DNA of 64,000 bases from Campylobacterales bacterium (lineage in GTDB: Bacteria > Campylobacterota > Campylobacteria > Campylobacterales > QNZT01): assembly GCA_027066435.1 (NCBI GenBank), contig JAMONX010000060.1, forward strand, positions 5,112 to 69,111, read 5' to 3'. Shown piece by piece: positions 25,755 to 54,424 of this stretch. Both the position numbers and the translations under genes were made by a program. A model generated the notes under the pieces. The model ran no database searches and was not told where the DNA came from. It saw nothing but the letters and a program-made list of their open reading frames with translations. Numbering within the stretch: position 1 is the stretch's first letter; each line of letters starts with the position of its first letter.

Positions 25755-26422
25755 AAATAGCAGTTATCCTTTATCCTGGAACAAACTGTGAGTATGATAG
25801 TAAATATGCATATGAGATGTTAAATCAAAATGTAGAGCTGATTTGGCATAAAGAGACAAAATTACCACAAAATTTAGACTTAGTGGTAATTGCTGGTGGA
25901 TTTAGTTACGGAGATGCACTTAGAAGTGGAGCTATTGCTAAGTTTTCACCAATAACTAAAGCCATTGTTGAGTATGCCAATAGTGGTGGAAAAGTTTTAG
26001 GAATTTGCAATGGATTTCAGATACTTTTAGAGGCAAATTTACTTCCAGGAGCTATGAAACACAATAAAAATGTACATTTTATCTCAAAATATCATCACTT
26101 AAAAGTAGAAAATAGTGAAAATGATTTTTTAAAAGAGTTAAAAAAAGGAGATATTGTAAATATACCAATTTCCCATGGTGAGGGAAATTATTATATTGAT
26201 TCAGATGCACTTGATGAACTTTATGATAATAATCAAATTCTTTTAACTTATTGTGATGAAAATGGCAAAATTCTAAATCCTAATGGTTCAGTAGATTCAA
26301 TCGCAGGAATCTGCAATAAAAATAGAAATGTATTTGGCTTAATGCCTCACCCTGAGAGAGCAATGGAAAAATTACTAGGTTCAGATGATGGTATAAAAAT
26401 GTTACAGGGTTTGATTAGTTGA
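25751..26422 (+). CDS. purQ: FGAM synthase glutamine amidotransferase subunit PurQ
   Basis: Class I GATase motifs: GICNGFQ nucleophile elbow and MPHPER. Confidence 0.95.
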   Translation: MKIAVILYPGTNCEYDSKYAYEMLNQNVELIWHKETKLPQNLDLVVIAGGFSYGDALRSGAIAKFSPITKAIVEYANSGGKVLGICNGFQILLEANLLPGAMKHNKNVHFISKYHHLKVENSENDFLKELKKGDIVNIPISHGEGNYYIDSDALDELYDNNQILLTYCDENGKILNPNGSVDSIAGICNKNRNVFGLMPHPERAMEKLLGSDDGIKMLQGLIS

Positions 26423-27708
26423 AAGTAAAACTATTTTTTATTTTAACACTTCTAACACTATTTTCACTACAATCTAATGCTGGTCTGTTTGATAATCTGT
26501 TTGGAGGAGGTAAAGAGGCTCCTCAAATCAGACAAGAAGAAGCTATTATCATAGAAGATGAGGAGATTATCTCTGCTGAGGATTATCTAAATAGTACAGA
26601 TGCACCTACAAATATAGAAGTTTTTCCAAATGATGAAGTTTCCTCACAGGCATTTGATGATGCTGAAGAGTTCATTGATGATAGTGATTTTGAAGATCCT
26701 TTGGTTCGAGCACAAAGTATCTTTCTCTCTTTTTCAGACGCACCAAAAAAGATATATCTTTCACAAAGAGTAGTTATAAAATTAAAAGCAGTTGTTACAA
26801 ATGAAAATGTTACATTTTTGAAAACCTCATTTCTAAAAGCAAAAGATATTCAAATTTTAAATAAAAGTGCTTCTTGGAAAAAAACTTCACCAAACTCTTA
26901 TGAAATTTCATATATTCTTAAATTCTTTTCAACGGTCGGTAAGTTACCTGATTTTAAAGTAACAACATATTCAGATGGTAGAGTTTTAAGTAGTGAAACG
27001 CTCTTTGCATACAAACCTAAAATTATTGCTCTTCGTGAAGATAAAGAGTTTTCTTTAGTTCTGTCAAAAGATTTTACTCTCCAAAGTCATAATGAAAAGA
27101 AGTATGATGAAAAATCCAATATTGTAGTTTTAGAGTTAAATGCAACTGAAGCAAATCTTGAAGATTTCCATATACCTTATGCCATAAAAGATGGTATATA
27201 TGATATAAAAGAGTATGGTTTAAATCAAAGTATCTACTATTTTGCAATAATTCCAAATGATATAAAGGTCTTCAAATTTAAATATTTTGACCTTATTAGC
27301 AATAAATATCACATAGTGACTTTTCCTATTTTATTACAAGATAGTAGTATTAGCACACAGACAGATTTAAACCCTCAAAAAAGCAGATTTGCTCTTTATA
27401 AAGCTATAGCTTTAATAGTTTTGGCTTTTATAATATTTCTTTTTTATATAAAAACAAGAGCTTTATATCTTTTGGTTCTTACTTTTGCAGTACTTGCATT
27501 TGTTCTTTATAAGCAGATTCCTATAAGTAAAGTAACATTAGAAAAAGGGGTAAATTTAAGAATTTTGCCAACAGAAAATTCAACTATATTTTATGTCACA
27601 CAAGAGAAAACCCAAGCAGATATGTTACTTAAAAAAGATGGATATATAAAATTGTTACTTCCAAATAAAAAAATCGGATGGATAAATGAAGATTCTACAA
27701 AAAATTAA
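26419..27708 (+). CDS. Membrane protein with acidic N-terminal region and C-terminal SH3-like segment; function unknown
   Basis: Signal peptide, Asp/Glu-rich stretch, two TM helices near residue 330-365, and a C-terminal ~60 aa resembling bacterial SH3 (GVNLRILPTENSTIFY...GWINE). TTG start overlaps the purQ stop. Confidence 0.5.
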   Translation: MKVKLFFILTLLTLFSLQSNAGLFDNLFGGGKEAPQIRQEEAIIIEDEEIISAEDYLNSTDAPTNIEVFPNDEVSSQAFDDAEEFIDDSDFEDPLVRAQSIFLSFSDAPKKIYLSQRVVIKLKAVVTNENVTFLKTSFLKAKDIQILNKSASWKKTSPNSYEISYILKFFSTVGKLPDFKVTTYSDGRVLSSETLFAYKPKIIALREDKEFSLVLSKDFTLQSHNEKKYDEKSNIVVLELNATEANLEDFHIPYAIKDGIYDIKEYGLNQSIYYFAIIPNDIKVFKFKYFDLISNKYHIVTFPILLQDSSISTQTDLNPQKSRFALYKAIALIVLAFIIFLFYIKTRALYLLVLTFAVLAFVLYKQIPISKVTLEKGVNLRILPTENSTIFYVTQEKTQADMLLKKDGYIKLLLPNKKIGWINEDSTKN

Positions 27709-28390: not shown

Positions 28391-30487
28391 CTATTCATCC
28401 AACATCCAATAGAGAAAACTAGGAATATCATTTATCCCTATATAGATATAATTATTTTTGCCTCTATAGTCATTTCGTTTTGTATATGTTATGCGTAGGA
28501 TGTTTAAAAAATCTAGATATACATTGTTACCAAAACCGATATTTTTGTCGATGGGGCTATCTAAATCCTGATATATTGACGCTCCAAGACCAAGTGTTAT
28601 CATATCTTTTTTTAATTCATAGTTTAAATTTATATCAGCTCTTAAAAAATGTTCTTGATTATTTTGATTTTGTATTACATAAGAGAGTGATGGTTTAACC
28701 TCAATCGCTTTTGGGATTAAAAAACTAAGAGAGTTATTATCAATATAGTAGTAGTTTTCATATCCAATAGAGAGAATATTTTTTGCATAAGAGAGTTCAT
28801 AAGGAAAATATTGTATCCATAGTTTTTTATTATTAATTGGTGCTGAGATTGGGTTGTAAGTATACCCACTTTTAGTTTTATAAAATGTTCCTGTAGTATA
28901 TGCCGCAATAGATGCAAATGGTTTTGTAAGGTTGTTTGAATTCTCTTTTTCAAGTGTTACGATACGCTGCACTATGCTTGAAAGGGGTCTTCTGTACCAG
29001 TTATCTGGATGCGAAAGAGTATGTTTTAGGTAACTATTGGTAGCTTTATAATTATATTTATTAAGTTTATTTATAAAAGTATAAAACTCTTCCATATTTT
29101 GAAAATTTAGATCTTTTATCGATTCAAATATTGCAAATAAATCATACTGTTTTAGATAATCTTTTTCTTCAAATCTATATCCAAATTCCTCAAAACTTAA
29201 AAGGTTAAGTATATATTTTGCTCTATCTGACTCTTTTGATAGCAGTTTATAGATACTTTTTCTTGCAACTTTTTGACATCTTTGATTTTTTAACTCATTA
29301 TCTGTTCTCTCACTGCAAAGATATTTTGTACTATCTATAATTGCATCATAAACACCTACATAATAGTCATATTGGCGAAAACCTTTATCTAAAAAGGCTC
29401 CAAAATGTTCTAAAAATTTACCTGTTATTGGAAAGTATCTTGAAGAGATTTGGATTTCTTTTTGAGTATTGCCAAACTCTTGAGCTAGTGTATTATAAAG
29501 GATACTAGATTCAGATGCACTATAGATATCTCCAATCAAATCTATAGCACTGTTGATTGGGCTTTGTGTTTGCTTCAATACTCTAAGAGATTTTTTTTGA
29601 TGCTCTTTTCGCATATGTTTTGGATCCATAAATATATAATTTTTTGCTCTATATTTTGAAAGCCTTATAGCAAAATCCAAAGGAACATTATCAAAAACAC
29701 CACCATCCAAAAAGAGAGCCTTTTCAAATTTTCCATGATGCAAATATTCAAGCTCCACCTGTTCAAAAGCAATTGGAAATGCACTAGATGCATAAAGTGC
29801 TTTTAAAACTTGCTCTTTTGAAGGATTACCTCCACTTGAGAGATGAATGATATTATCACGGGAGAGATCAAAATTATCTTCTATTTTTGCTTTTTTGGAG
29901 TCATCGACACTAAGATAAAGTGGTATATGAAACAGCTTATTGGAAATTTTAATATTTTGGATTTTAGAAATCTTTGGTTCAACTCTAGTAACTGCAAATC
30001 CAAATGCTATTTTGCATCCAGGCTCATAATATGGCTTATCAAGTGCTAAAAAAGCTTCTGTTGCTAATTTTTCAATTTTTGTTCTACTAAAAAGTGATGT
30101 TTGATTTGATGGGTCATCAGTCCCAAACTCTTTATCTATAAAAAGATCTTCAAAATCGATCTCAGTCCACATATGATAAAAAAGATTATCATCAATAAGA
30201 TTTTCACGATCTGCCATCTCTTGGCTTCTACACCAAGACAAAGAAGAGAGTAGGGCATTGATGGCTCCAGCAGATGCACCAGTAATTGAGTGCATCTGAA
30301 TATCTACTTTTTTCTCATGGTGCTTGAGGTGATTTAAATACTTTAAAAGCCCCCAATTATAACCAGCCTCATAAGCACCAAGAGAGATACCACCACTGAT
30401 AATCAACGAGAAATCCTTCTCTTTATCATATGCAAAAAGAGGAAAAGAGAACATAAACAGTATAAATGATAAAAATATTTTTTTCAT
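28391..30487 (-). CDS. Secreted patatin-like phospholipase with ~350-aa C-terminal extension
   Basis: Signal peptide (MKKIFLSFILFMFSFPLFA). Patatin motifs: glycine-rich GGISLGAYEAG, GASAG serine lipase motif and catalytic-Asp DGG. The C-terminal third is rich in alternating aromatic/polar beta-strand-like segments. Confidence 0.8.
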   Translation of the reverse strand: MKKIFLSFILFMFSFPLFAYDKEKDFSLIISGGISLGAYEAGYNWGLLKYLNHLKHHEKKVDIQMHSITGASAGAINALLSSLSWCRSQEMADRENLIDDNLFYHMWTEIDFEDLFIDKEFGTDDPSNQTSLFSRTKIEKLATEAFLALDKPYYEPGCKIAFGFAVTRVEPKISKIQNIKISNKLFHIPLYLSVDDSKKAKIEDNFDLSRDNIIHLSSGGNPSKEQVLKALYASSAFPIAFEQVELEYLHHGKFEKALFLDGGVFDNVPLDFAIRLSKYRAKNYIFMDPKHMRKEHQKKSLRVLKQTQSPINSAIDLIGDIYSASESSILYNTLAQEFGNTQKEIQISSRYFPITGKFLEHFGAFLDKGFRQYDYYVGVYDAIIDSTKYLCSERTDNELKNQRCQKVARKSIYKLLSKESDRAKYILNLLSFEEFGYRFEEKDYLKQYDLFAIFESIKDLNFQNMEEFYTFINKLNKYNYKATNSYLKHTLSHPDNWYRRPLSSIVQRIVTLEKENSNNLTKPFASIAAYTTGTFYKTKSGYTYNPISAPINNKKLWIQYFPYELSYAKNILSIGYENYYYIDNNSLSFLIPKAIEVKPSLSYVIQNQNNQEHFLRADINLNYELKKDMITLGLGASIYQDLDSPIDKNIGFGNNVYLDFLNILRITYTKRNDYRGKNNYIYIGINDIPSFLYWMLDE

Positions 30488-30612: not shown

Positions 30613-32328
30613 ATGAATCACTCTTTTGGTTTCGATGCTTATGTTTCTAGTATATCAAACCAAATTAGAGCAAATTTTCAAAAGATAGACCGTGCTTTTG
30701 ATGATTGTAAAATTTCAAAAGATGAAAAGCCCCAAGCTATTCTTAAATCAAGTAAGCTTATTCAAATGGCTCATGATTGTAGTCAATATCGTAAAATCGA
30801 TCCTTTGAGCATCGGTATTTTTGGTGAGTGGGGAAGTGGTAAGACAAAACTTCTTCGAGGGATAGAAAACCATTTCTTTGTGGATGAAAAAATAATCCCT
30901 ATATTTTTCAATGCTTGGCGTTATGAAAAAGATGAACATATCATCATACCTCTTTTTAAAACAGTTCTTCATCAGCTAAAAAAAGATAAAGATAAAACTC
31001 TGTATGAGAACTTTAGAATACTTACTTTTTCACTTTTGAGTGGTTTCAGTGCTGAATTTTTGGGATTGAAGTTTGATGCAAATAGTGTGATATCAAGATT
31101 GTTTGAGATGCAAAAAGATGAAGAAATTGATGAACTTGATTTGATGGAGCGTATAGAGTCTGTATATTTTAATATACCTCAAAAATTAGAGGAACTTACA
31201 CTCGAACATGAAGTAAGATTTGTTTTTCTCATAGATGATCTTGATCGTTGTTTGCCTGAAAATACTTTGAAGATGCTAGAGAGTATCAAACTGTTTTTAG
31301 ATATTCCTGGATGTGCATTTGTTTTGGCTATAGATGACGATATCGTTGAGAGAGGAGTGGAGCATCATTACAAAGATTATATCAAAAATGAAATCCATAT
31401 AAATAATGGCAAAAAAGAGGAGCCGACCGAAAAATCTCCTGTACAAAATATTCCCATAACAGGAAGTGAATATCTTGAAAAGATGATACAACTGCCTTTT
31501 GCACTTCCCATACTTCATAAAAGTGATGTTGAAACATTTTTAAGAGAAAATTATCGTGAAATTTTTGAGACAATGATAAAACATGAGTTAAGAGAACAAG
31601 AGAGAAAATCATTTGATGAACAGTTTTTAAAACTATTTACAAAGATAATTCCGCCAATTCCTAGAAAATTGATTCGTACTATTGAAGTTTTTAAACTTAA
31701 ATCTGAACTTATAGATATAGATAAAAATGATTTGTTAAAGTTAATTGCTTTAGAGCTTTTTGCCCCATCTCTCTTTAGGCTTACAAAACAAAACTTCCCA
31801 AAACAAAATATCTTTAATATACTCAATGGTTGGATGGAGAAAGTAACGATATATGAGTTTGAAAAAATTGAAGAAAATATTATAGGCAAATCTTCAAGTG
31901 AGATGATAAAAAGATTGTATAGTGATATACTTTTTATCCTAAAAAAAGAGGATTTAAGTCGTGTGAAGTTTGATATGGATACAGTTTTTCAAAAACCTAT
32001 CTCAAAAAACTCGATAGAGAGATATCTCTACCTAGACAATAAAATCTCCCAAACAACTTATAATAAAAATAGTATCTCTCCACTCGCTTCAAGTAAACTA
32101 GAAAATCTTTTAAAATCCTTGGCAAGTGACGATGAAAAAGAGTGGCAAATAGCACTAAATGAGCTTGAAGGTGGAGTTTTAAGCTCTGTAGATGTGGATA
32201 AAATCATAGAGAAAGATATAGATATAACAAACTCTTGGCTTCAAACTATTGCTCCAAATTTAGATGAAGATGATTTTATAAAAGTCATCAAAGCATCAAA
32301 ACTATTAAAAGAGGTTGCAAATGAGTAA
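30613..32328 (+). CDS. KAP-family P-loop NTPase (soluble variant)
   Basis: Walker A in the KAP-typical form GIFGEWGSGKT. Walker B in the KAP-typical form VFLIDDLDRCLPE. About 125 residues lie between them, with no convincing TM insertion. 571 aa with a long helical C-terminal region. Confidence 0.85.
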   Translation: MNHSFGFDAYVSSISNQIRANFQKIDRAFDDCKISKDEKPQAILKSSKLIQMAHDCSQYRKIDPLSIGIFGEWGSGKTKLLRGIENHFFVDEKIIPIFFNAWRYEKDEHIIIPLFKTVLHQLKKDKDKTLYENFRILTFSLLSGFSAEFLGLKFDANSVISRLFEMQKDEEIDELDLMERIESVYFNIPQKLEELTLEHEVRFVFLIDDLDRCLPENTLKMLESIKLFLDIPGCAFVLAIDDDIVERGVEHHYKDYIKNEIHINNGKKEEPTEKSPVQNIPITGSEYLEKMIQLPFALPILHKSDVETFLRENYREIFETMIKHELREQERKSFDEQFLKLFTKIIPPIPRKLIRTIEVFKLKSELIDIDKNDLLKLIALELFAPSLFRLTKQNFPKQNIFNILNGWMEKVTIYEFEKIEENIIGKSSSEMIKRLYSDILFILKKEDLSRVKFDMDTVFQKPISKNSIERYLYLDNKISQTTYNKNSISPLASSKLENLLKSLASDDEKEWQIALNELEGGVLSSVDVDKIIEKDIDITNSWLQTIAPNLDEDDFIKVIKASKLLKEVANE

Positions 32329-34450
32329 AGATAAAAAACTACAAGAGACAATCTCAATAATCACAAACAAAATCAACCCATTGCATAAAAAGGAGATAAG
32401 AGATTTAAAAGATTTAATATCTGTAGAAAAGTTGGAAAAAAAGCTAGACAAAAATGAAGGTTTAAATTTAAGAGGTACTAACTTAAATCCAAATGAGTTT
32501 AAAAATGCAGATATATCAAATAAAATAGATGGAGAGTTTACACTTCAAATCAACTATGCTTTAAATGATATTGTAAATGATATCGTATATCTTGATTGTG
32601 TAACAGTTGCAGTTGCAGGAAGTTGTGGTATCTACATTTATAATAGTTTGAAAAATGTAGTTTTATACTTTATTCCTATTATGGAAGGTGTAATAGCTAT
32701 TATCAAATTGGATGAAGAGAGAATCGCTTTTGGTGGAAGTGATAAAAAAGTAACAATTTTTAATTATAAAACAAAAAAGATATTACATGAACAACCAGTT
32801 TCTGACAATGTGGAAGCTATTATCAAATTGGATGAAGAGAGAATCGCTTTTGGTGGAAGTGATAAAAAAGTAACAATTTTTAATTATAAAACAAAAAAGA
32901 TATTACATGAACAACCAGTTTCTGATAATGTGGAAGCTATTAGCAAATTGGATGAAGAGAGGATTGCTTTTAGTGGAAGGGATAAAAAAGTAACAATTTT
33001 TAATTATAAAACAAAAAAGATATTACATGAACAACCAGTTTCTGACAATATGAATGCTATTATCAAATTGGATAAAGAGAGAATTGCTTTTGGTGGGTGG
33101 GATAAAAAAGTAACAATTTTTAATTATAAAACAAAAAAGATATTACATGAACAATCAGCCTCTAGCTCTGTGAATGCTATTATCAAATTGGATGAAGAGA
33201 GAATCGCTTTTGGTGGATGGGATGAAAAAGTAACAATTTTTAATTATAAAATAAAAAAGATATTACATGAACAACCAGTTTCTAACAATGTGAATGCTCT
33301 TACCAAATTGGACGAAGAGAGGATTGCTTTTGGTGGATGGGATGAAAAAGTAACAATTTTTAATTATAAAATAAAAAAGATATTACATAAACAACCAGTC
33401 TCTAGCTCTGTGTATGCTATTATCAAATTGGATGAAGAGAGAATTGCTTTTGGTGGAAATGGTAAAAAAGTAACAATTTTTAATTATAAAACAAGAAAGA
33501 TATTACATGAACAACCAGTTTCTGACAATGTGGAAGCTATTATCAAATTGGATGAAGAGAGGATTGCTTTTGGTGGAGATAAAAAAGTAACAATTTTTAA
33601 TTATAAAACAAAAAAGATATTACATGAACAACCAGTCTCTATCTATGTGCATGCTATTATCAAATTGGATGAAGAGAGAATTGCTTTTGGTGGGTGGGAT
33701 AAAAAAGTAACAATTTTTAATTATAAAACAAAAAAGATATTATATGAACAACCAGTCTCTATCTCTGTGAAAGCTATTACTAAATTGGATGAAGAGAGAA
33801 TTGCTTTTGGTGGAAATGGTAAAAAAGTAACAATTTTTAATTATAAAACAAAAAAGATATTACATGAACAACCAGTCTCTAGCTCTGTGGATGCTATTAT
33901 CAAATTGGATGAAGAGAGAATTGCTTTTGGTGGAAATGATAAAAAAGTAACAATTTTTAATTATAAAACAAAAAAGATATTATATGAACAACCAGTCTCT
34001 ATCTCTGTGAAAACTATTACTAAATTGGATGAAGAGAGAATTGCTTTTGGTGGGTGGGATAAAAAAGTAACAATTTTTAATTATAAAACAAAAAAGATAT
34101 TATATGAACAACCAGTTTCTGGCTTTGTGAATGCTATTATCAAATTGGATGAAGAGAGAATTGCTTTTGGTGAGTTTAATGGAAAAGTAACAATTCTTAA
34201 ATGGAAAGATAAAAAGAATATTATCTTAGAAGTAAAAAGTTTTGATGATGGAATTGTTTCAAGTTATGAGCCAACAGCAAATCAGCTAACACTTATAAAC
34301 ACAAAAGGAGACTTTACTCCAAACAACGACCCTATATTGTACCGCCATGCTTGGTATGTCAATAAATCAAATCGAATTGAACCATATTTTAAATTTCCAA
34401 ATAGATGGGAATTTGATGAAGAAGAGGCAAATAAAATAGTTTTAAGATAA
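32321..34450 (+). CDS. WD40-like beta-propeller repeat protein (13 near-identical + 1 degenerate 40-aa blades)
   Basis: The ATG at 32321 overlaps the KAP stop by 8 nt (ATGAGTAA), with SD AAGAGG 6 nt upstream. The TTG at 32315 is an alternative start. The repeat unit AIIKLDEERIAFGGxDKKVTIFNYKTKKILHEQPVSxxVx matches the WD40 pattern (His at the GH position, GGxD turn, hydrophobic strand ending in an aromatic). Confidence 0.85.
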   Translation: MSKDKKLQETISIITNKINPLHKKEIRDLKDLISVEKLEKKLDKNEGLNLRGTNLNPNEFKNADISNKIDGEFTLQINYALNDIVNDIVYLDCVTVAVAGSCGIYIYNSLKNVVLYFIPIMEGVIAIIKLDEERIAFGGSDKKVTIFNYKTKKILHEQPVSDNVEAIIKLDEERIAFGGSDKKVTIFNYKTKKILHEQPVSDNVEAISKLDEERIAFSGRDKKVTIFNYKTKKILHEQPVSDNMNAIIKLDKERIAFGGWDKKVTIFNYKTKKILHEQSASSSVNAIIKLDEERIAFGGWDEKVTIFNYKIKKILHEQPVSNNVNALTKLDEERIAFGGWDEKVTIFNYKIKKILHKQPVSSSVYAIIKLDEERIAFGGNGKKVTIFNYKTRKILHEQPVSDNVEAIIKLDEERIAFGGDKKVTIFNYKTKKILHEQPVSIYVHAIIKLDEERIAFGGWDKKVTIFNYKTKKILYEQPVSISVKAITKLDEERIAFGGNGKKVTIFNYKTKKILHEQPVSSSVDAIIKLDEERIAFGGNDKKVTIFNYKTKKILYEQPVSISVKTITKLDEERIAFGGWDKKVTIFNYKTKKILYEQPVSGFVNAIIKLDEERIAFGEFNGKVTILKWKDKKNIILEVKSFDDGIVSSYEPTANQLTLINTKGDFTPNNDPILYRHAWYVNKSNRIEPYFKFPNRWEFDEEEANKIVLR
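32696..34252 (+). repeat. In-frame 120-bp tandem repeat array, 13 units (one of 117 bp)
   Basis: Units start at 32696, 32816, 32936, 33056, 33176, 33296, 33416, 33536 (117 bp), 33653, 33773, 33893, 34013 and 34133. Units 1 and 2 differ at 1 of 120 nt. The last unit degenerates in its second half. A more divergent blade precedes the array at about 32576-32695. Confidence 0.95.
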
Positions 34451-53314: not shown

Positions 53315-54424
53315 TTAAAGACCTAAAGATTTTAGAGTCTCTTTTGTTAATGCACCGGTTGAAAGCTTATTTGCTCTTTGATATTTTTCTAAAGCTGCTC
53401 TTGTTCTCCATCCAAAAATACCGTCAATTGGACCTGGATTTATGCCAGCTGCTTTAAGTGCTCTTTGAACATCTCTTGTAGTTGCAGTAGTCATATTCGT
53501 TTTACAAAGTACACTTTGCCATTTAAGTTCTGCATCGCTTACTTTAACTTTTTTTGTAACTGTTTGATAAGTTTCTGGAATCAGATTTTTCTTTACAGAA
53601 GCAGGAGAAATCAGTTCTTTAACTTTTATTGTTTTATAAACAGCTGGAACAGGAACAGATTTTGTTGTAGCAGGAGTATCTAAAACGGTTCTAGTAACTG
53701 TTTTGTATTTTGCTGGAATTGGAATAGATTTTGTAGTAGCAGGAGTTTTTAAAATCCTTTTTGTAACGGTTCTATATTGTGCAGGTACATTTACTAAGCA
53801 TAAAATTTCACCTGTTAAGTTATTTAACTTTTCAACAGGACCTCTACCTTTTTTCCACGCTGTGTGTGCAGCTTTAACCAAGATTTTTTCAGTAACCGTT
53901 TCATAAGTAGCAGGAACTTTAACTAATCTCTCACTTGCTTCGCTTACGAGAACCTTTTCAGTTATCTTTTTGTAAGTAGCAGGAACTGGAACCAATCTCT
54001 CACTAGCTTCTCTTACCAATATTTTTTTCGTAACCATACCGTATTTAGCAGGAATTACTGTAATGTTTTCACCAGCCTCCCTTGAGAGAACTTTCTCTGT
54101 CTGTAACTGATATTTTGCAGGAATAAGCACTCTTGCATAACACTCTCCAGCTTTTGCATTTGGTGGATAAAGAGAGCTTGTACCAGGTACAACTACCTGT
54201 TTTACAATAGTTTTACCTTGTTTAGCTCTAGCTTCCAATATTGCGACTTGAAGAGCCTCAATTTGCTTGTCTTTATCATCTTGCATGTGAACAACATTTG
54301 TAACCTCGGGAGTAGAAGCAACCACAGGTGTATTACAACTTCTCTTTTCAGCACAGCCACTTATACTTAAAGCTACCGCCGCGGATAATAGTATCGGTAA
54401 ACTTTTTTTATTTTTAACAATCAT
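53315..54424 (-). CDS. Lipoprotein with internal ~24-aa repeats and C-terminal peptidoglycan-binding domain
   Basis: Lipobox (LSISGC). About eight repeats of P-A-x-Y-x-T-V-T-x-K-V-L type. The C-terminal VQRALKAAGINPGPIDGIFGWRTRAALEKYQ matches the PG_binding_1 signature. Confidence 0.7.
   Translation of the reverse strand: MIVKNKKSLPILLSAAVALSISGCAEKRSCNTPVVASTPEVTNVVHMQDDKDKQIEALQVAILEARAKQGKTIVKQVVVPGTSSLYPPNAKAGECYARVLIPAKYQLQTEKVLSREAGENITVIPAKYGMVTKKILVREASERLVPVPATYKKITEKVLVSEASERLVKVPATYETVTEKILVKAAHTAWKKGRGPVEKLNNLTGEILCLVNVPAQYRTVTKRILKTPATTKSIPIPAKYKTVTRTVLDTPATTKSVPVPAVYKTIKVKELISPASVKKNLIPETYQTVTKKVKVSDAELKWQSVLCKTNMTTATTRDVQRALKAAGINPGPIDGIFGWRTRAALEKYQRANKLSTGALTKETLKSLGL

What the first reader, a model, noticed from the sequence alone, without database searches (positions are those of the whole stretch)
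32696..34252. 120-bp coding tandem array: near-perfect DNA identity with variation confined to a few codons predicted to line the propeller top face
Seen in sequence: there are 13 in-frame units. Units 1 and 2 differ by a single synonymous change (GAC at 32804-32806 versus GAT at 32924-32926). A ~45-nt core (AAAGTAACAATTTTTAATTATAAA..AAGATATTA) is almost invariant, even at synonymous sites, in units 1-12. Amino-acid changes cluster in codon 15 (S,S,R,W,W,W,N,deleted,W,N,N,W), codon 16 (D/G), codons 37-38 (DN,DN,DN,SS,NN,SS,DN,IY,IS,SS,IS,GF), codon 40 (E,E,N,N,N,Y,E,H,K,D,K,N) and codons 2-3 of the next unit (II, IS, LT, IT). Established knowledge: in the canonical WD40 blade, the residue just before the conserved Asp of the b-c turn and the residues at the entry of strand a point to the top, ligand-binding face. 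Highly conserved WD repeats with hypervariability at such positions are the signature of concerted evolution plus diversifying selection in the fungal HET-E/D/R recognition domains. Inference: the array is a rapidly evolving binding surface kept homogeneous by intragenic recombination or gene conversion, and it can expand or contract in frame.
Basis: partly seen in the sequence, partly recalled or inferred. Interest (0 to 1): 0.85.

Follow-up and report, generated by a model that had tools for sequence, protein, structure and literature searches.

The report
Hypervariable WD40 repeat sensor beside KAP ATPase
A bacterial gene holds twelve nearly identical 40-residue propeller-blade repeats that differ almost only at the three positions where WD40 propellers bind partners, and it sits directly behind a KAP-type ATPase, so it looks like a fast-evolving recognition module similar to those of fungal immune receptors.

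Summary
A 120-bp in-frame array lies at 32696-34252: 12 highly similar units plus a diverged 13th, and a cryptic 14th blade lies upstream at 32576-32695. Units 1-12 average 91% nucleotide but only 84% amino-acid identity.

Variation concentrates in codons 15, 38 and 40, which are the published WD40 top-face hotspots D-1, R1-2 and R1, and in adjacent codon 37. At the three hotspots there are at least 11 nonsynonymous changes against 2.3 expected from the array's own synonymous rate (P=3e-5).

Seven units fold as a 7-bladed WD40 propeller (pLDDT 96, TM 0.89). Fourteen blades imply a double propeller, and a distant relative with diverged blades also has 14.

The gene overlaps by 8 bp the end of a KAP-family P-loop NTPase gene. 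This pairing recurs in Campylobacterota. [quoted passage not shown]

In a sister locus, contigs identical over 6,980 nt differ only inside their array.

A diversity-generating retroelement is excluded. Short-read misassembly of copy number and order is not.

Best reading: a rapidly evolving ligand-binding surface maintained by unit exchange, serving as the sensor of an NLR-like KAP module. It is a new variant of a known kind, and its function is inferred.

The parts
30613..32328 (+). KAP-family P-loop NTPase gene (571 aa; Walker A GEWGSGKT, Walker B FLIDDLD). Its stop overlaps the ATG of the repeat gene by 8 bp.
   Evidence: Pfam KAP_NTPase E=1e-34. PADLOC hits to QatA, PifA and PDC-S20 models. 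NCBIfam QatA scores 126 bits against a cut-off of 600, so it is not a QatA equivalog. 1067 homologs were found, mostly Campylobacterota.
32321..34450 (+). Repeat-protein gene (709 aa from ATG 32321; an alternative TTG start lies at 32315). It encodes an N-terminal domain, 14 blades and a C-terminal domain.
   Evidence: ORF list and translation. Beta-propeller and WD40 Pfam families. With units 1-12 removed it is colinear with the 229-aa ortholog P0121 at 61% identity.
32321..32575 (+). N-terminal ~85-residue domain (conserved motifs TNKxNP..KKEI and NLRG), specific to this protein family. It has no Pfam match.
   Evidence: Conserved across family members. Helical but of low confidence in the AlphaFold model.
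32576..32695 (+). Blade 0: a diverged, cryptic 14th blade preceding the array.
   Evidence: Translation in the 120-bp register. Strands predicted at residues 95-118. Present in orthologs P0121, P0126, P0139 and L016.
32696..34132 (+). Twelve highly repetitive 40-codon units (unit 8 has 39 codons). The hypervariable codons are 15, 37, 38 and 40, with minor variation at 3 and 16.
   Evidence: TRF. Per-codon table. Diversity statistics. Seven units fold as a 7-bladed WD40 propeller with pLDDT 96.2 and pTM 0.91.
34133..34252 (+). Unit 13: the terminal blade. It is identical to the other units over its first ~38 nt and diverged after that.
   Evidence: It is the counterpart of the single conserved blade in the short orthologs.
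34253..34450 (+). C-terminal ~65-residue domain (motifs LY+HAWY and PYF) plus the stop codon. It is conserved family-wide and has no Pfam match.
   Evidence: Alignments. The same domain ends P0123, P0138, P0171 and the L016 and L017 proteins.
28391..30487 (-). Patatin-like phospholipase gene, divergent from the KAP gene across a 125-bp gap. It is a possible but unproven partner.
   Evidence: Pfam Patatin E=3e-22. A PLA2-like gene sits in the same divergent position next to a KAP-FGE gene in L012. The link was not tested further.

Best explanation
The array encodes 12 of the 14 blades of a WD40-like double beta-propeller (2 x 7 blades).

How the array evolves. The blades are kept nearly identical because units are repeatedly copied, exchanged and lost by homologous recombination, using the invariant core of the repeat as substrate. 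This could be unequal crossing-over, gene conversion or slippage. The three side chains per blade that point to the ligand-binding top face (D-1, R1-2, R1) and one neighbouring loop residue are driven apart by diversifying selection. The result is a surface of about 14 x 4 variable residues on a constant scaffold.

How the protein works. It is made from the same transcript as the KAP P-loop NTPase and is probably translationally coupled to it. It most likely acts as the NTPase's separate sensor subunit. Ligand binding on the propeller face would be relayed to the NTPase, presumably through the family-specific N- and C-terminal domains. The NTPase would then switch or oligomerise, as STAND/NLR proteins do with repeat sensors fused in cis. 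The most likely role is recognition of non-self, such as phage or another invader. The output step is unknown.

Shown: the array, the fold, hotspot-restricted variation, the nonsynonymous excess, the mosaic of markers, the conserved KAP linkage, and array-restricted differences in a sister locus.

Inferred: ongoing exchange at this locus, selection as the cause of the excess, the sensor role, and the immune function.
For: Array and per-codon pattern.

Diversity:
- Nucleotide identity is 91.1% but amino-acid identity is 84.1%. Hot codons are 21.5% identical against 90.7% elsewhere.
- The hotspots show at least 11 nonsynonymous changes against 2.3 expected (P=3e-5). Variable nucleotide columns number 7 of 9 in the hotspots against 23 of 111 elsewhere (P=8e-4).
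- 91 of 171 informative site pairs fail the four-gamete test. The B-C-loop and D-A-loop variants are reassorted among units; for example units 9 and 11 share IS.K but carry W and N at codon 15.

Hotspots and fold:
- Hotspot definition: PMC3419727.
- The units 1-7 model has pLDDT 96.2. It matches 7-bladed WD40 designs at TM 0.89 and WDR5 at TM 0.82.
- For the full-length model, the best PDB match is 2YMU, a 14-repeat 'highly repetitive propeller'.
- L016, a distant relative, has blade 0 plus 13 diverged blades, which is also 14.

KAP linkage:
- The window pair overlaps by 8 bp.
- The same pairing occurs in L002, L004, L006, L008, L014 and L015-L019.
- 68 of the best 120 KAP homologs carry a C-terminal FGE-sulfatase (CLec) domain in place of a downstream WD gene. 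That domain is a known sensor type on STAND and KAP NTPases (PMC10907252).

Independent arrays:
- Highly repetitive arrays in relatives vary at the same positions: P0149/L010, P0182, P0135, P0153 and L017-19.
- L017 and L018 have 0 differences over 6,980 nt and then differ only inside the array. Unit 1 of L017 is a chimera of units 1 and 2 of L018.

Precedent: highly repetitive WD40 proteins with variable hotspots in prokaryotes (PMC5587647); fungal NLR WD40 repeats of high internal conservation (PMC12222747, PMC4986451).
Against: - No effector domain was found in either protein, and the neighbours are housekeeping genes.
- No hit reaches the cut-off of any defence-system model.
- No relatives occur in phage/viral contigs or plasmids, so there is no sign of mobility.
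- The selection test rests on 12 units and 7 synonymous changes. It ignores recombination and possible codon bias.
- Copy-number or sequence polymorphism at this exact locus rests on one 44-nt contig tail (L001).
- Short-read assemblies may have produced the apparent differences among alleles and the 1-2-blade 'short forms'.
- The DHSW tetrad and the GH/WD dipeptides are absent, so the hotspot rule is applied to a non-canonical repeat.
Confidence: 0.6

Rival explanations
1. Recent neutral amplification. The unit was amplified recently by slippage or unequal recombination. The variable codons are simply the least constrained surface-loop positions drifting freely. There is no diversifying selection and no recognition role.
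For: The whole-unit pN/pS is 0.84, below 1. Loops are generally tolerant of substitution. The synonymous counts are tiny: 7 changes over 23.7 sites. Hu et al. interpret highly repetitive WD40 proteins mainly as evolutionarily young.
Against: Relaxed constraint gives omega near 1 at most, whereas the a-priori hotspots give about 4.7 (P=3e-5). Other loop positions on the opposite face (codons 5-8 and 24-27) are nearly invariant. The same three positions vary in independent arrays with different unit lengths of 123 and 129 bp. Marker reassortment argues for repeated exchange rather than a single burst.
Confidence: 0.15
2. Assembly artefact in the details. The array is real, but its copy number, unit order and some unit combinations are products of short-read assembly. 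The same would hold for the apparent allelic differences in related contigs.
For: A Logan assembly of SRR8439171 breaks exactly at the start of the array (L001). L010 ends inside its array in Nextera adapter sequence. Family members with 1-2 blades cannot form a propeller alone and may be collapsed arrays. Published tests show Illumina assemblies of 126-bp WD40 repeats of high internal conservation are unreliable. The window's protein is absent from the protein collection although its neighbours are present.
Against: The longest exact repeat inside the array is 111 nt and the next is 95 nt. The array is therefore unique at k>=112 or with 150-nt reads. The reading frame is intact through all units. 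The total of 14 blades equals that of the diverged, easily assembled relative L016. The hotspot pattern does not depend on unit order.
Confidence: 0.15
3. Housekeeping scaffold. The KAP NTPase and the propeller form an ordinary cellular machine, for example a regulatory or assembly scaffold, with no role in conflict. The variable residues tune an endogenous interaction.
For: The neighbours are housekeeping genes and GC content is unremarkable. There is no effector domain and no match in plasmids or viral contigs. WD40 propellers are generic scaffolds.
Against: The family is rare and patchy: one relative among 185,579 species genomes and 157 hits in 1.8 billion representative proteins, most of them generic repeats. 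Decayed copies occur, namely the L002 pseudogene and the split KAP in L014. Sensors are swapped within one KAP clade, FGE/CLec against WD40. Hotspot hypervariability and array-restricted polymorphism are typical of conflict genes, not of housekeeping scaffolds.
Confidence: 0.2
4. Targeted hypermutation. A diversity-generating retroelement or another site-directed mutator writes the variable codons.
For: Several hot codons look like NNC or NNT variants of AAC and AAT. KAP-CLec proteins can be targets of diversity-generating retroelements.
Against: No template-like copy of the unit exists elsewhere in the 64-kb window, and no reverse-transcriptase-like ORF is present. Variable columns are not enriched for adenine: 11 of 30 against 43% A in the unit. 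The two KAP-FGE loci inspected have no reverse transcriptase nearby.
Confidence: 0.02

Closest known systems
Highly-Repetitive (HR) prokaryotic WD40 proteins (Hu et al. 2017, PMC5587647); structural example Nostoc punctiforme Npun_R6612, PDB 2YMU
   Same: Internal repeat identity is above 0.7. There are 14 repeats, read as two propellers. Most sites are conserved while the predicted interaction hotspots are diverse. 2YMU is the best PDB match of the full-length model.
   Different: The units here lack the GH and WD dipeptides and the DHSW tetrad. The protein has its own N- and C-terminal domains and is encoded as the downstream partner of a KAP NTPase. The host is a ~30% GC member of the Campylobacterota, not a cyanobacterium or actinobacterium.
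Fungal HNWD NLRs (Podospora HET-E, HET-D, HET-R) and other NLRs with repeats of high internal conservation (PMC12222747, PMC4986451, PMC1805685)
   Same: WD40 units are 80-100% identical, with about four hypervariable codons per unit on the propeller's interaction surface. The units undergo concerted evolution by unequal crossing-over, show repeat-number polymorphism, and assemble poorly from short reads.
   Different: In fungi the repeats are fused in cis to a NACHT NTPase and a HET death domain. Here the NTPase is of the KAP family, lies on a separate polypeptide, and no effector domain is recognisable. The unit is 40 aa rather than 42. Function and allelic series are untested here.
Bacterial STAND/NLR-like antiviral NTPases (Avs, bNACHT) and KAP-type defence ATPases (QatA, PifA)
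   Same: A P-loop NTPase is combined with a variable repeat or CLec sensor. The KAP domain matches the QatA, PifA and PDC-S20 models. Sensor modules are interchangeable within one NTPase clade.
   Different: KAP is not a STAND NTPase. The QatA equivalog cut-off is missed by far (126 against 600 bits). No Pfam domain match among the flanking genes suggests QatBCD. No nuclease, protease or TIR effector was found. Anti-phage activity is not shown.
CLec (FGE-sulfatase) sensors on STAND/KAP NTPases diversified by diversity-generating retroelements (Dore et al. 2024, PMC10907252)
   Same: A hypervariable ligand-binding module is attached to a signalling NTPase. 68 of the best 120 relatives of this KAP carry an FGE/CLec domain.
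   Different: Diversity here arises among tandem repeat units without a retroelement. The two KAP-FGE loci inspected also lack a reverse transcriptase.

Membership tests
WD40 repeat beta-propeller | Unit of about 40 residues forming a four-stranded antiparallel blade | tested here: met
   DSSP on both AlphaFold models gives four strands per 40-aa unit: A at codons 39-4, B at 9-14, C at 18-23 and D at 28-34.
WD40 repeat beta-propeller | Closed propeller fold superposable on solved WD40 domains | tested here: met
   The units 1-7 model has pLDDT 96.2 and pTM 0.91. Foldseek gives TM 0.89/0.87 and rmsd 1.9 to the 7-bladed WRAP-T design (7bid), 0.82 to WDR5, and matches to Tup1, FBXW7/11 and PkwA. 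Caveat: the alignment used for the prediction was built from the array's own frames.
WD40 repeat beta-propeller | Sequence signature: GH and WD dipeptides and the D-H-S/T-W tetrad | tested here: not met
   The consensus unit AIIKLDEERIAFGGxDKKVTIFNYKTKKILHEQPVSxxVx keeps only the Asp (codon 16). There is no GH, and FNY stands where WD would be. The sister arrays L017-19 do have GH...WD.
WD40 repeat beta-propeller | Match to curated WD40 or propeller HMMs and to solved WD40 sequences | tested here: inconclusive
   There are many WD40 and beta-propeller Pfam hits with E from 1e-19 to 1e-33, but most fall below their whole-domain cut-offs. ANAPC4_WD40 (68.8 against 22.9 bits) and PQQ_2 are above theirs. 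PDB sequence hits are Tako8, FBXW7 and Apaf-1 WD40.
Highly-Repetitive WD40 (Hu et al. 2017) | Internal repeat identity of at least 0.7 | tested here: met
   Mean amino-acid identity of units 1-12 is 0.84, with a minimum of 0.725.
Highly-Repetitive WD40 (Hu et al. 2017) | Diversity concentrated at the predicted hotspots R1-2, R1 and D-1 | tested here: met
   Codons 38, 40 and 15 correspond to R1-2, R1 and D-1 by the rule of Wu et al. 2012. They carry 4, 6 and 4 amino-acid states (plus one deletion at codon 15), against 1-2 states at nearly all other codons (codon 37, adjacent in the D-A loop, has 5; codon 3 has 3). The excess gives P=3e-5.
NLR sensor with repeats of high internal conservation (fungal HNWD type) | Repeats more than 80% identical with a few codons under diversifying selection on the binding face | tested here: met
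   The selection test is small and not recombination-aware.
NLR sensor with repeats of high internal conservation (fungal HNWD type) | Repeat-number and repeat-order polymorphism among alleles | tested here: inconclusive
   At this locus the only evidence is the L001 tail: 6 differences in 44 nt after 2,065 identical nt. In the sister locus, L017, L018 and L019 differ only in their arrays. Family members range from 1 to about 14 or more blades. All of these are short-read assemblies.
NLR sensor with repeats of high internal conservation (fungal HNWD type) | Repeats fused in cis to a STAND (NACHT or NB-ARC) NTPase with an N-terminal effector domain | tested here: not met
   The NTPase is of the KAP family (PF07693; NACHT only at E=0.033). 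It is a separate gene overlapping by 8 bp, and no effector domain was detected.
Qat anti-phage system (QatABCD) | QatA equivalog score and neighbouring QatB, QatC and QatD genes | tested here: not met
   NCBIfam QatA scores 126 bits against a cut-off of 600. The flanking genes are patatin, an acyltransferase, a histidine phosphatase and ValRS.
Target of a diversity-generating retroelement | Nearby reverse transcriptase, a template repeat, and adenine-specific substitutions | tested here: not met
   No template-like copy and no reverse-transcriptase-like ORF in the window. No adenine bias at the variable columns.

The most novel reading that the evidence does not exclude
This would be the type example of an undescribed two-gene immune-like module of Campylobacterota. 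A soluble KAP NTPase would work with a separately encoded 14-blade double propeller. The propeller's recognition surface would be diversified by shuffling and conversion of near-identical blade cassettes. That would be a retroelement-free, germline 'repertoire' mechanism parallel to fungal HET-E/D/R. Within the same KAP clade the module would be evolutionarily interchangeable with a fused CLec/FGE sensor.
Probability: 0.35. Interest if true: 0.7.

Novelty: new variant of a known kind. Interest (0 to 1): 0.55.

Why it matters
Arrays of near-identical repeats with hypervariable contact residues are the hallmark of fast-evolving recognition domains in fungal NLRs. Such arrays have been catalogued in prokaryotes, but without functional context.

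Here the array sits in a conserved operon with a KAP NTPase. Its relatives swap the propeller for a C-type-lectin-fold sensor. Metagenomic contigs identical in their flanks differ only in the array.

If the module senses invaders, three things follow:
- NLR-like logic (NTPase plus a diversifying repeat sensor) would extend to the KAP family and to a split, two-protein format.
- It would show a way to generate receptor diversity without a retroelement.
- It would give a compact system for experiments: 12 x 4 variable residues on a constant scaffold that is predicted with high confidence.

There is also a practical warning. Short-read assemblies break or may collapse these genes, so the family is under-represented and mis-sized in databases.

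Tried and rejected
- Homology search with the whole repeat protein returned nothing usable: 8000 word-sharing candidates, none significant. The 229-aa ortholog found only itself in the word-indexed database. The exhaustive phmmer search was needed to find the family.
- The first genome-collection scan found nothing. An alignment of 13 diverse members was too divergent to search with. The second scan found a single MAG.
- The metagenome scan only re-found the L002 contig.
- Viral contigs and plasmids gave no relatives.
- A diversity-generating retroelement was rejected: no template repeat, no reverse transcriptase, no adenine bias. The two KAP-FGE loci inspected have no reverse transcriptase either.
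- Rfam and tRNA scans of the window found nothing.
- Promoter and terminator scans were at background level.
- GC content and skew show no island signature.
- Exact look-ups of the window protein with both possible starts were not in the collection.
- The full-length single-sequence AlphaFold model was only moderately confident (pLDDT 61). Its global superpositions are not meaningful (TM about 0.3), so I relied on the 7-unit model.
- I considered using the short ortholog L002 as the 'ancestral unexpanded' state. I downgraded this because its KAP gene is a pseudogene and collapse during assembly cannot be excluded.
Full report
OBSERVATION

Tandem Repeats Finder reports a single strong array at 32696-34172: period 120, 12.3 copies, 91% matches, no indels. 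It is the only large tandem repeat in the window.

The units lie in frame in an ORF of 709 aa that starts at ATG 32321 (or TTG 32315) and ends at 34450. Cutting the sequence in the 120-bp register gives twelve highly similar units (32696-34132) and a 13th, diverged unit (34133-34252). Unit 8 is 117 bp because it lacks codon 15.

Three refinements apply:
- Mean identity among units 1-12 is 91.1% at the nucleotide level (84-99%) but only 84.1% at the amino-acid level.
- A further, cryptic blade precedes the array at 32576-32695, so the protein has 14 blades.
- Over the whole unit pN/pS is 0.84. The nonsynonymous excess is local.

FOLD AND POSITION OF THE VARIABLE CODONS

Pfam gives many beta-propeller and WD40-type matches. 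PDB sequence searches hit the designed WD40 propeller Tako8, FBXW7 and Apaf-1.

A single-sequence AlphaFold model of the whole protein is moderate: pLDDT is 61 overall and 65-83 in the array. It shows four strands per unit, and its best PDB match is 2YMU, the 14-repeat 'highly repetitive propeller' of Nostoc.

Units 1-7, predicted with an alignment of the array's own 7-unit frames, give pLDDT 96.2 and pTM 0.91. The model superposes on 7-bladed WD40 propellers: WRAP-T at TM 0.89 and rmsd 1.9 A, WDR5 at TM 0.82, and also Tup1, FBXW11 and PkwA.

The strands are A (codons 39-4), B (9-14), C (18-23) and D (28-34). Codons 15-17 therefore form the B-C loop and codons 35-38 the D-A loop, the two loops that make the top face.

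Wu et al. 2012 derive the top-face hotspots from the primary sequence. R1 and R2 are enclosed by V/L/I, R1-2 lies two residues before R1, and D-1 precedes the tetrad Asp (PMC3419727). Here V39-E40-A1-I2 and x15-D16 fit this rule exactly:
- R1 is codon 40 (6 states).
- R1-2 is codon 38 (4 states).
- D-1 is codon 15 (4 states plus one deletion).
- Codon 37 (5 states) is the adjacent loop residue.

The opposite-face loops (codons 5-8 and 24-27) are almost invariant. The canonical GH/WD dipeptides and the DHSW tetrad are absent apart from Asp16, so the repeat is WD40-like by fold rather than by signature. I could not read model coordinates, so exposure is inferred from topology and the published rule, not measured.

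IS THE VARIATION MORE THAN CHANCE?

I counted the minimum number of changes per codon column. The three a-priori hotspots carry at least 11 nonsynonymous and 0 synonymous changes. From the array's own synonymous rate (7 changes over 23.7 sites), 2.3 nonsynonymous changes are expected. This gives Poisson P=3e-5 and omega about 4.7. The other 36 codons give omega about 0.6.

Variable nucleotide columns number 7 of 9 in the hotspots against 23 of 111 elsewhere (P=8e-4). Amino-acid identity is 21.5% at codons 15, 37, 38 and 40 and 90.7% elsewhere.

Ninety-one of 171 pairs of informative sites fail the four-gamete test. The two variable clusters are reassorted among units; for instance units 9 and 11 share IS.K but differ at codon 15, and units 7 and 10 share NG but differ in the D-A loop. 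This fits exchange between units with breakpoints in the invariant core.

No synonymous change falls in codons 17-34 (P about 0.03).

These tests are small and do not model recombination.

CONTEXT

The gene immediately upstream (30613-32328) is a KAP-family P-loop NTPase (Pfam E=1e-34). Its stop overlaps the ATG of the repeat gene by 8 bp.

The KAP protein matches the PADLOC models QatA, PifA and PDC-S20 and weakly matches NCBIfam QatA (126 bits against a cut-off of 600). It is therefore a KAP protein but not a Qat system.

The flanking genes are housekeeping: an acyltransferase, a histidine phosphatase, ValRS, a Na/H exchanger and a PurQ-like amidotransferase. GC content is uniform.

A patatin-like phospholipase is divergent from the KAP gene. 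A PLA2-like gene occupies the same position next to a KAP-FGE gene in L012. This is noted as a possible effector link but was not followed up.

Homologs of the KAP protein are almost all from Campylobacterota (Sulfurovum, Nitratifractor, Caminibacter). Sixty-eight of the best 120 carry a C-terminal FGE-sulfatase (C-type-lectin-fold) domain in place of a downstream gene. That domain is known as a variable sensor on STAND and KAP NTPases (PMC10907252). The two such loci I inspected have no reverse transcriptase nearby.

THE PROTEIN FAMILY

An exhaustive phmmer search with the 229-aa ortholog P0121 defined a small family with three parts: a specific N-terminal domain, a variable number of blades, and a specific C-terminal domain.

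Wherever the upstream sequence is present, the upstream gene is a KAP NTPase. This holds for L002, L004, L006, L008, L014 and L015-L019. P0175 is even a KAP N-terminus fused to such a protein.

With units 1-12 removed, the window protein is colinear with P0121 at 61% identity.

L016 is a distant relative whose KAP is 38% identical and which lies on a 77-kb contig. It has blade 0 plus 13 diverged 43-residue blades. That is 14 blades, the same as the window. This argues that 14 (2 x 7) is the functional number and that the window's copy number is real.

Several relatives carry independent highly repetitive arrays with other unit lengths: 129 bp in L010 and 123 bp with canonical GH...WD in L017-19. 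In all of them the units differ at R1-2, R1 and D-1.

POLYMORPHISM

L001 is a Logan contig identical to the window over 2,065 nt. It has 6 differences in its last 44 nt, changing codons 33, 38 and 40 of blade 0 and codon 3 of unit 1 (plus one synonymous change in codon 39), and it ends at the start of the array.

In the sister locus, L017 and L018 come from two different samples. They have 0 differences over 6,980 nt and then diverge only inside the array. L017 has four units and a complete 349-aa protein, while L018 has at least six. Unit 1 of L017 is a chimera of units 1 and 2 of L018. This is the expected product of an in-frame unequal crossover, or of collapse during assembly.

Short-read assemblies of such arrays are known to be unreliable (PMC12222747). 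Examples appear here as well: L010 ends in Nextera adapter sequence, and many family members have only 1-2 blades.

For the window itself, the longest exact internal repeat is 111 nt and the next is 95 nt. The array is therefore unique at k>=112, so a correct assembly is plausible but unverified. The window protein is not in the protein collection although its neighbours are, and I cannot explain this.

ALTERNATIVES

- A diversity-generating retroelement is excluded. There is no template-like copy, no reverse-transcriptase-like ORF and no adenine bias.
- Neutral recent amplification with relaxed loops does not explain omega well above 1 at exactly the a-priori hotspots. Nor does it explain the conserved loops on the opposite face or the recurrence of the pattern in independent arrays.
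- A housekeeping scaffold role is not excluded. It fits poorly with the family's rarity (one relative among 185,579 species genomes), with decayed copies (L002 pseudogene, split KAP in L014) and with sensor swapping.

COMPARISON WITH KNOWN SYSTEMS AND VERDICT

The phenomenon itself is known. Near-identical WD40 units with hypervariable hotspot residues are described as Highly-Repetitive WD40 proteins of prokaryotes (PMC5587647). They are also described as the WD40 sensors of high internal conservation in the fungal NLRs HET-E, HET-D and HET-R (PMC12222747, PMC4986451).

This locus works like those systems, but it fails the membership test for an NLR:
- The NTPase is of the KAP family, not STAND.
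- It is a separate polypeptide.
- No effector domain is present.

I found no paper linking KAP NTPases with WD40 arrays. The only co-mention is incidental.

I therefore classify it as a new variant of a known kind. The evolutionary reading of the array has confidence about 0.8. The role as sensor of a KAP-based conflict system has confidence about 0.45. Interest is 0.55.

Noticed in passing
L002/L005 positions 385-438 and 300-560 (contig VAPK010043695.1): The KAP ortholog (69% identical) is a pseudogene. A 23-bp tandem duplication sits inside the Walker-A coding stretch (which reads GEWGSDKT), and the frame changes several times. Its downstream partner has only two blades.
   Followed up: partly
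L010 end (about 1050-1068), protein P0149: The contig ends inside a 129-bp-period highly repetitive array in Nextera adapter sequence (translated LSLIHI). The array was cut by the assembler, and the database protein carries adapter-derived residues.
   Followed up: yes
window 28391-30487 (-) and L012 7222-7884 (-): A patatin-like phospholipase is divergent from the KAP gene in the window. A PLA2-like 220-aa gene is divergent from a KAP-FGE gene in L012. This may be an effector association or a coincidence.
   Followed up: no
protein P0175 (304 aa; no locus fetched): A KAP N-terminus with an intact Walker A is fused directly to the N-domain, one blade and C-domain of the partner family. This is either a deletion product or an assembly chimera.
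   Followed up: no
window 53643-53789 and 53886-54016: Two 69-bp-period tandem repeats (about 2 copies each, 75-83% matches) lie inside ORF 53315-54424 on the minus strand.
   Followed up: no
window 32321-34447 (protein) versus the protein collection: The repeat protein is absent from the 15-billion-protein collection with either start codon. KAP and ValRS of the same 97,590-bp contig are present.
   Followed up: partly
L014 6004-8004 (Campylobacterales MAG Dive100_bin4.86): The KAP gene is split into 409-aa and 245-aa ORFs and is followed by a 189-aa one-blade family member. This is the only relative found in the GTDB species genomes.
   Followed up: partly
protein P0271 (ENA contig of 14,287 bp, not fetched): A KAP variant 99.5% identical (568 of 571 residues) to the window's exists in another assembly.
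   Followed up: no
window 26419-27708 (+): A 429-aa ORF between the PurQ-like amidotransferase and the acyltransferase has no Pfam match at E<=0.01.
   Followed up: no
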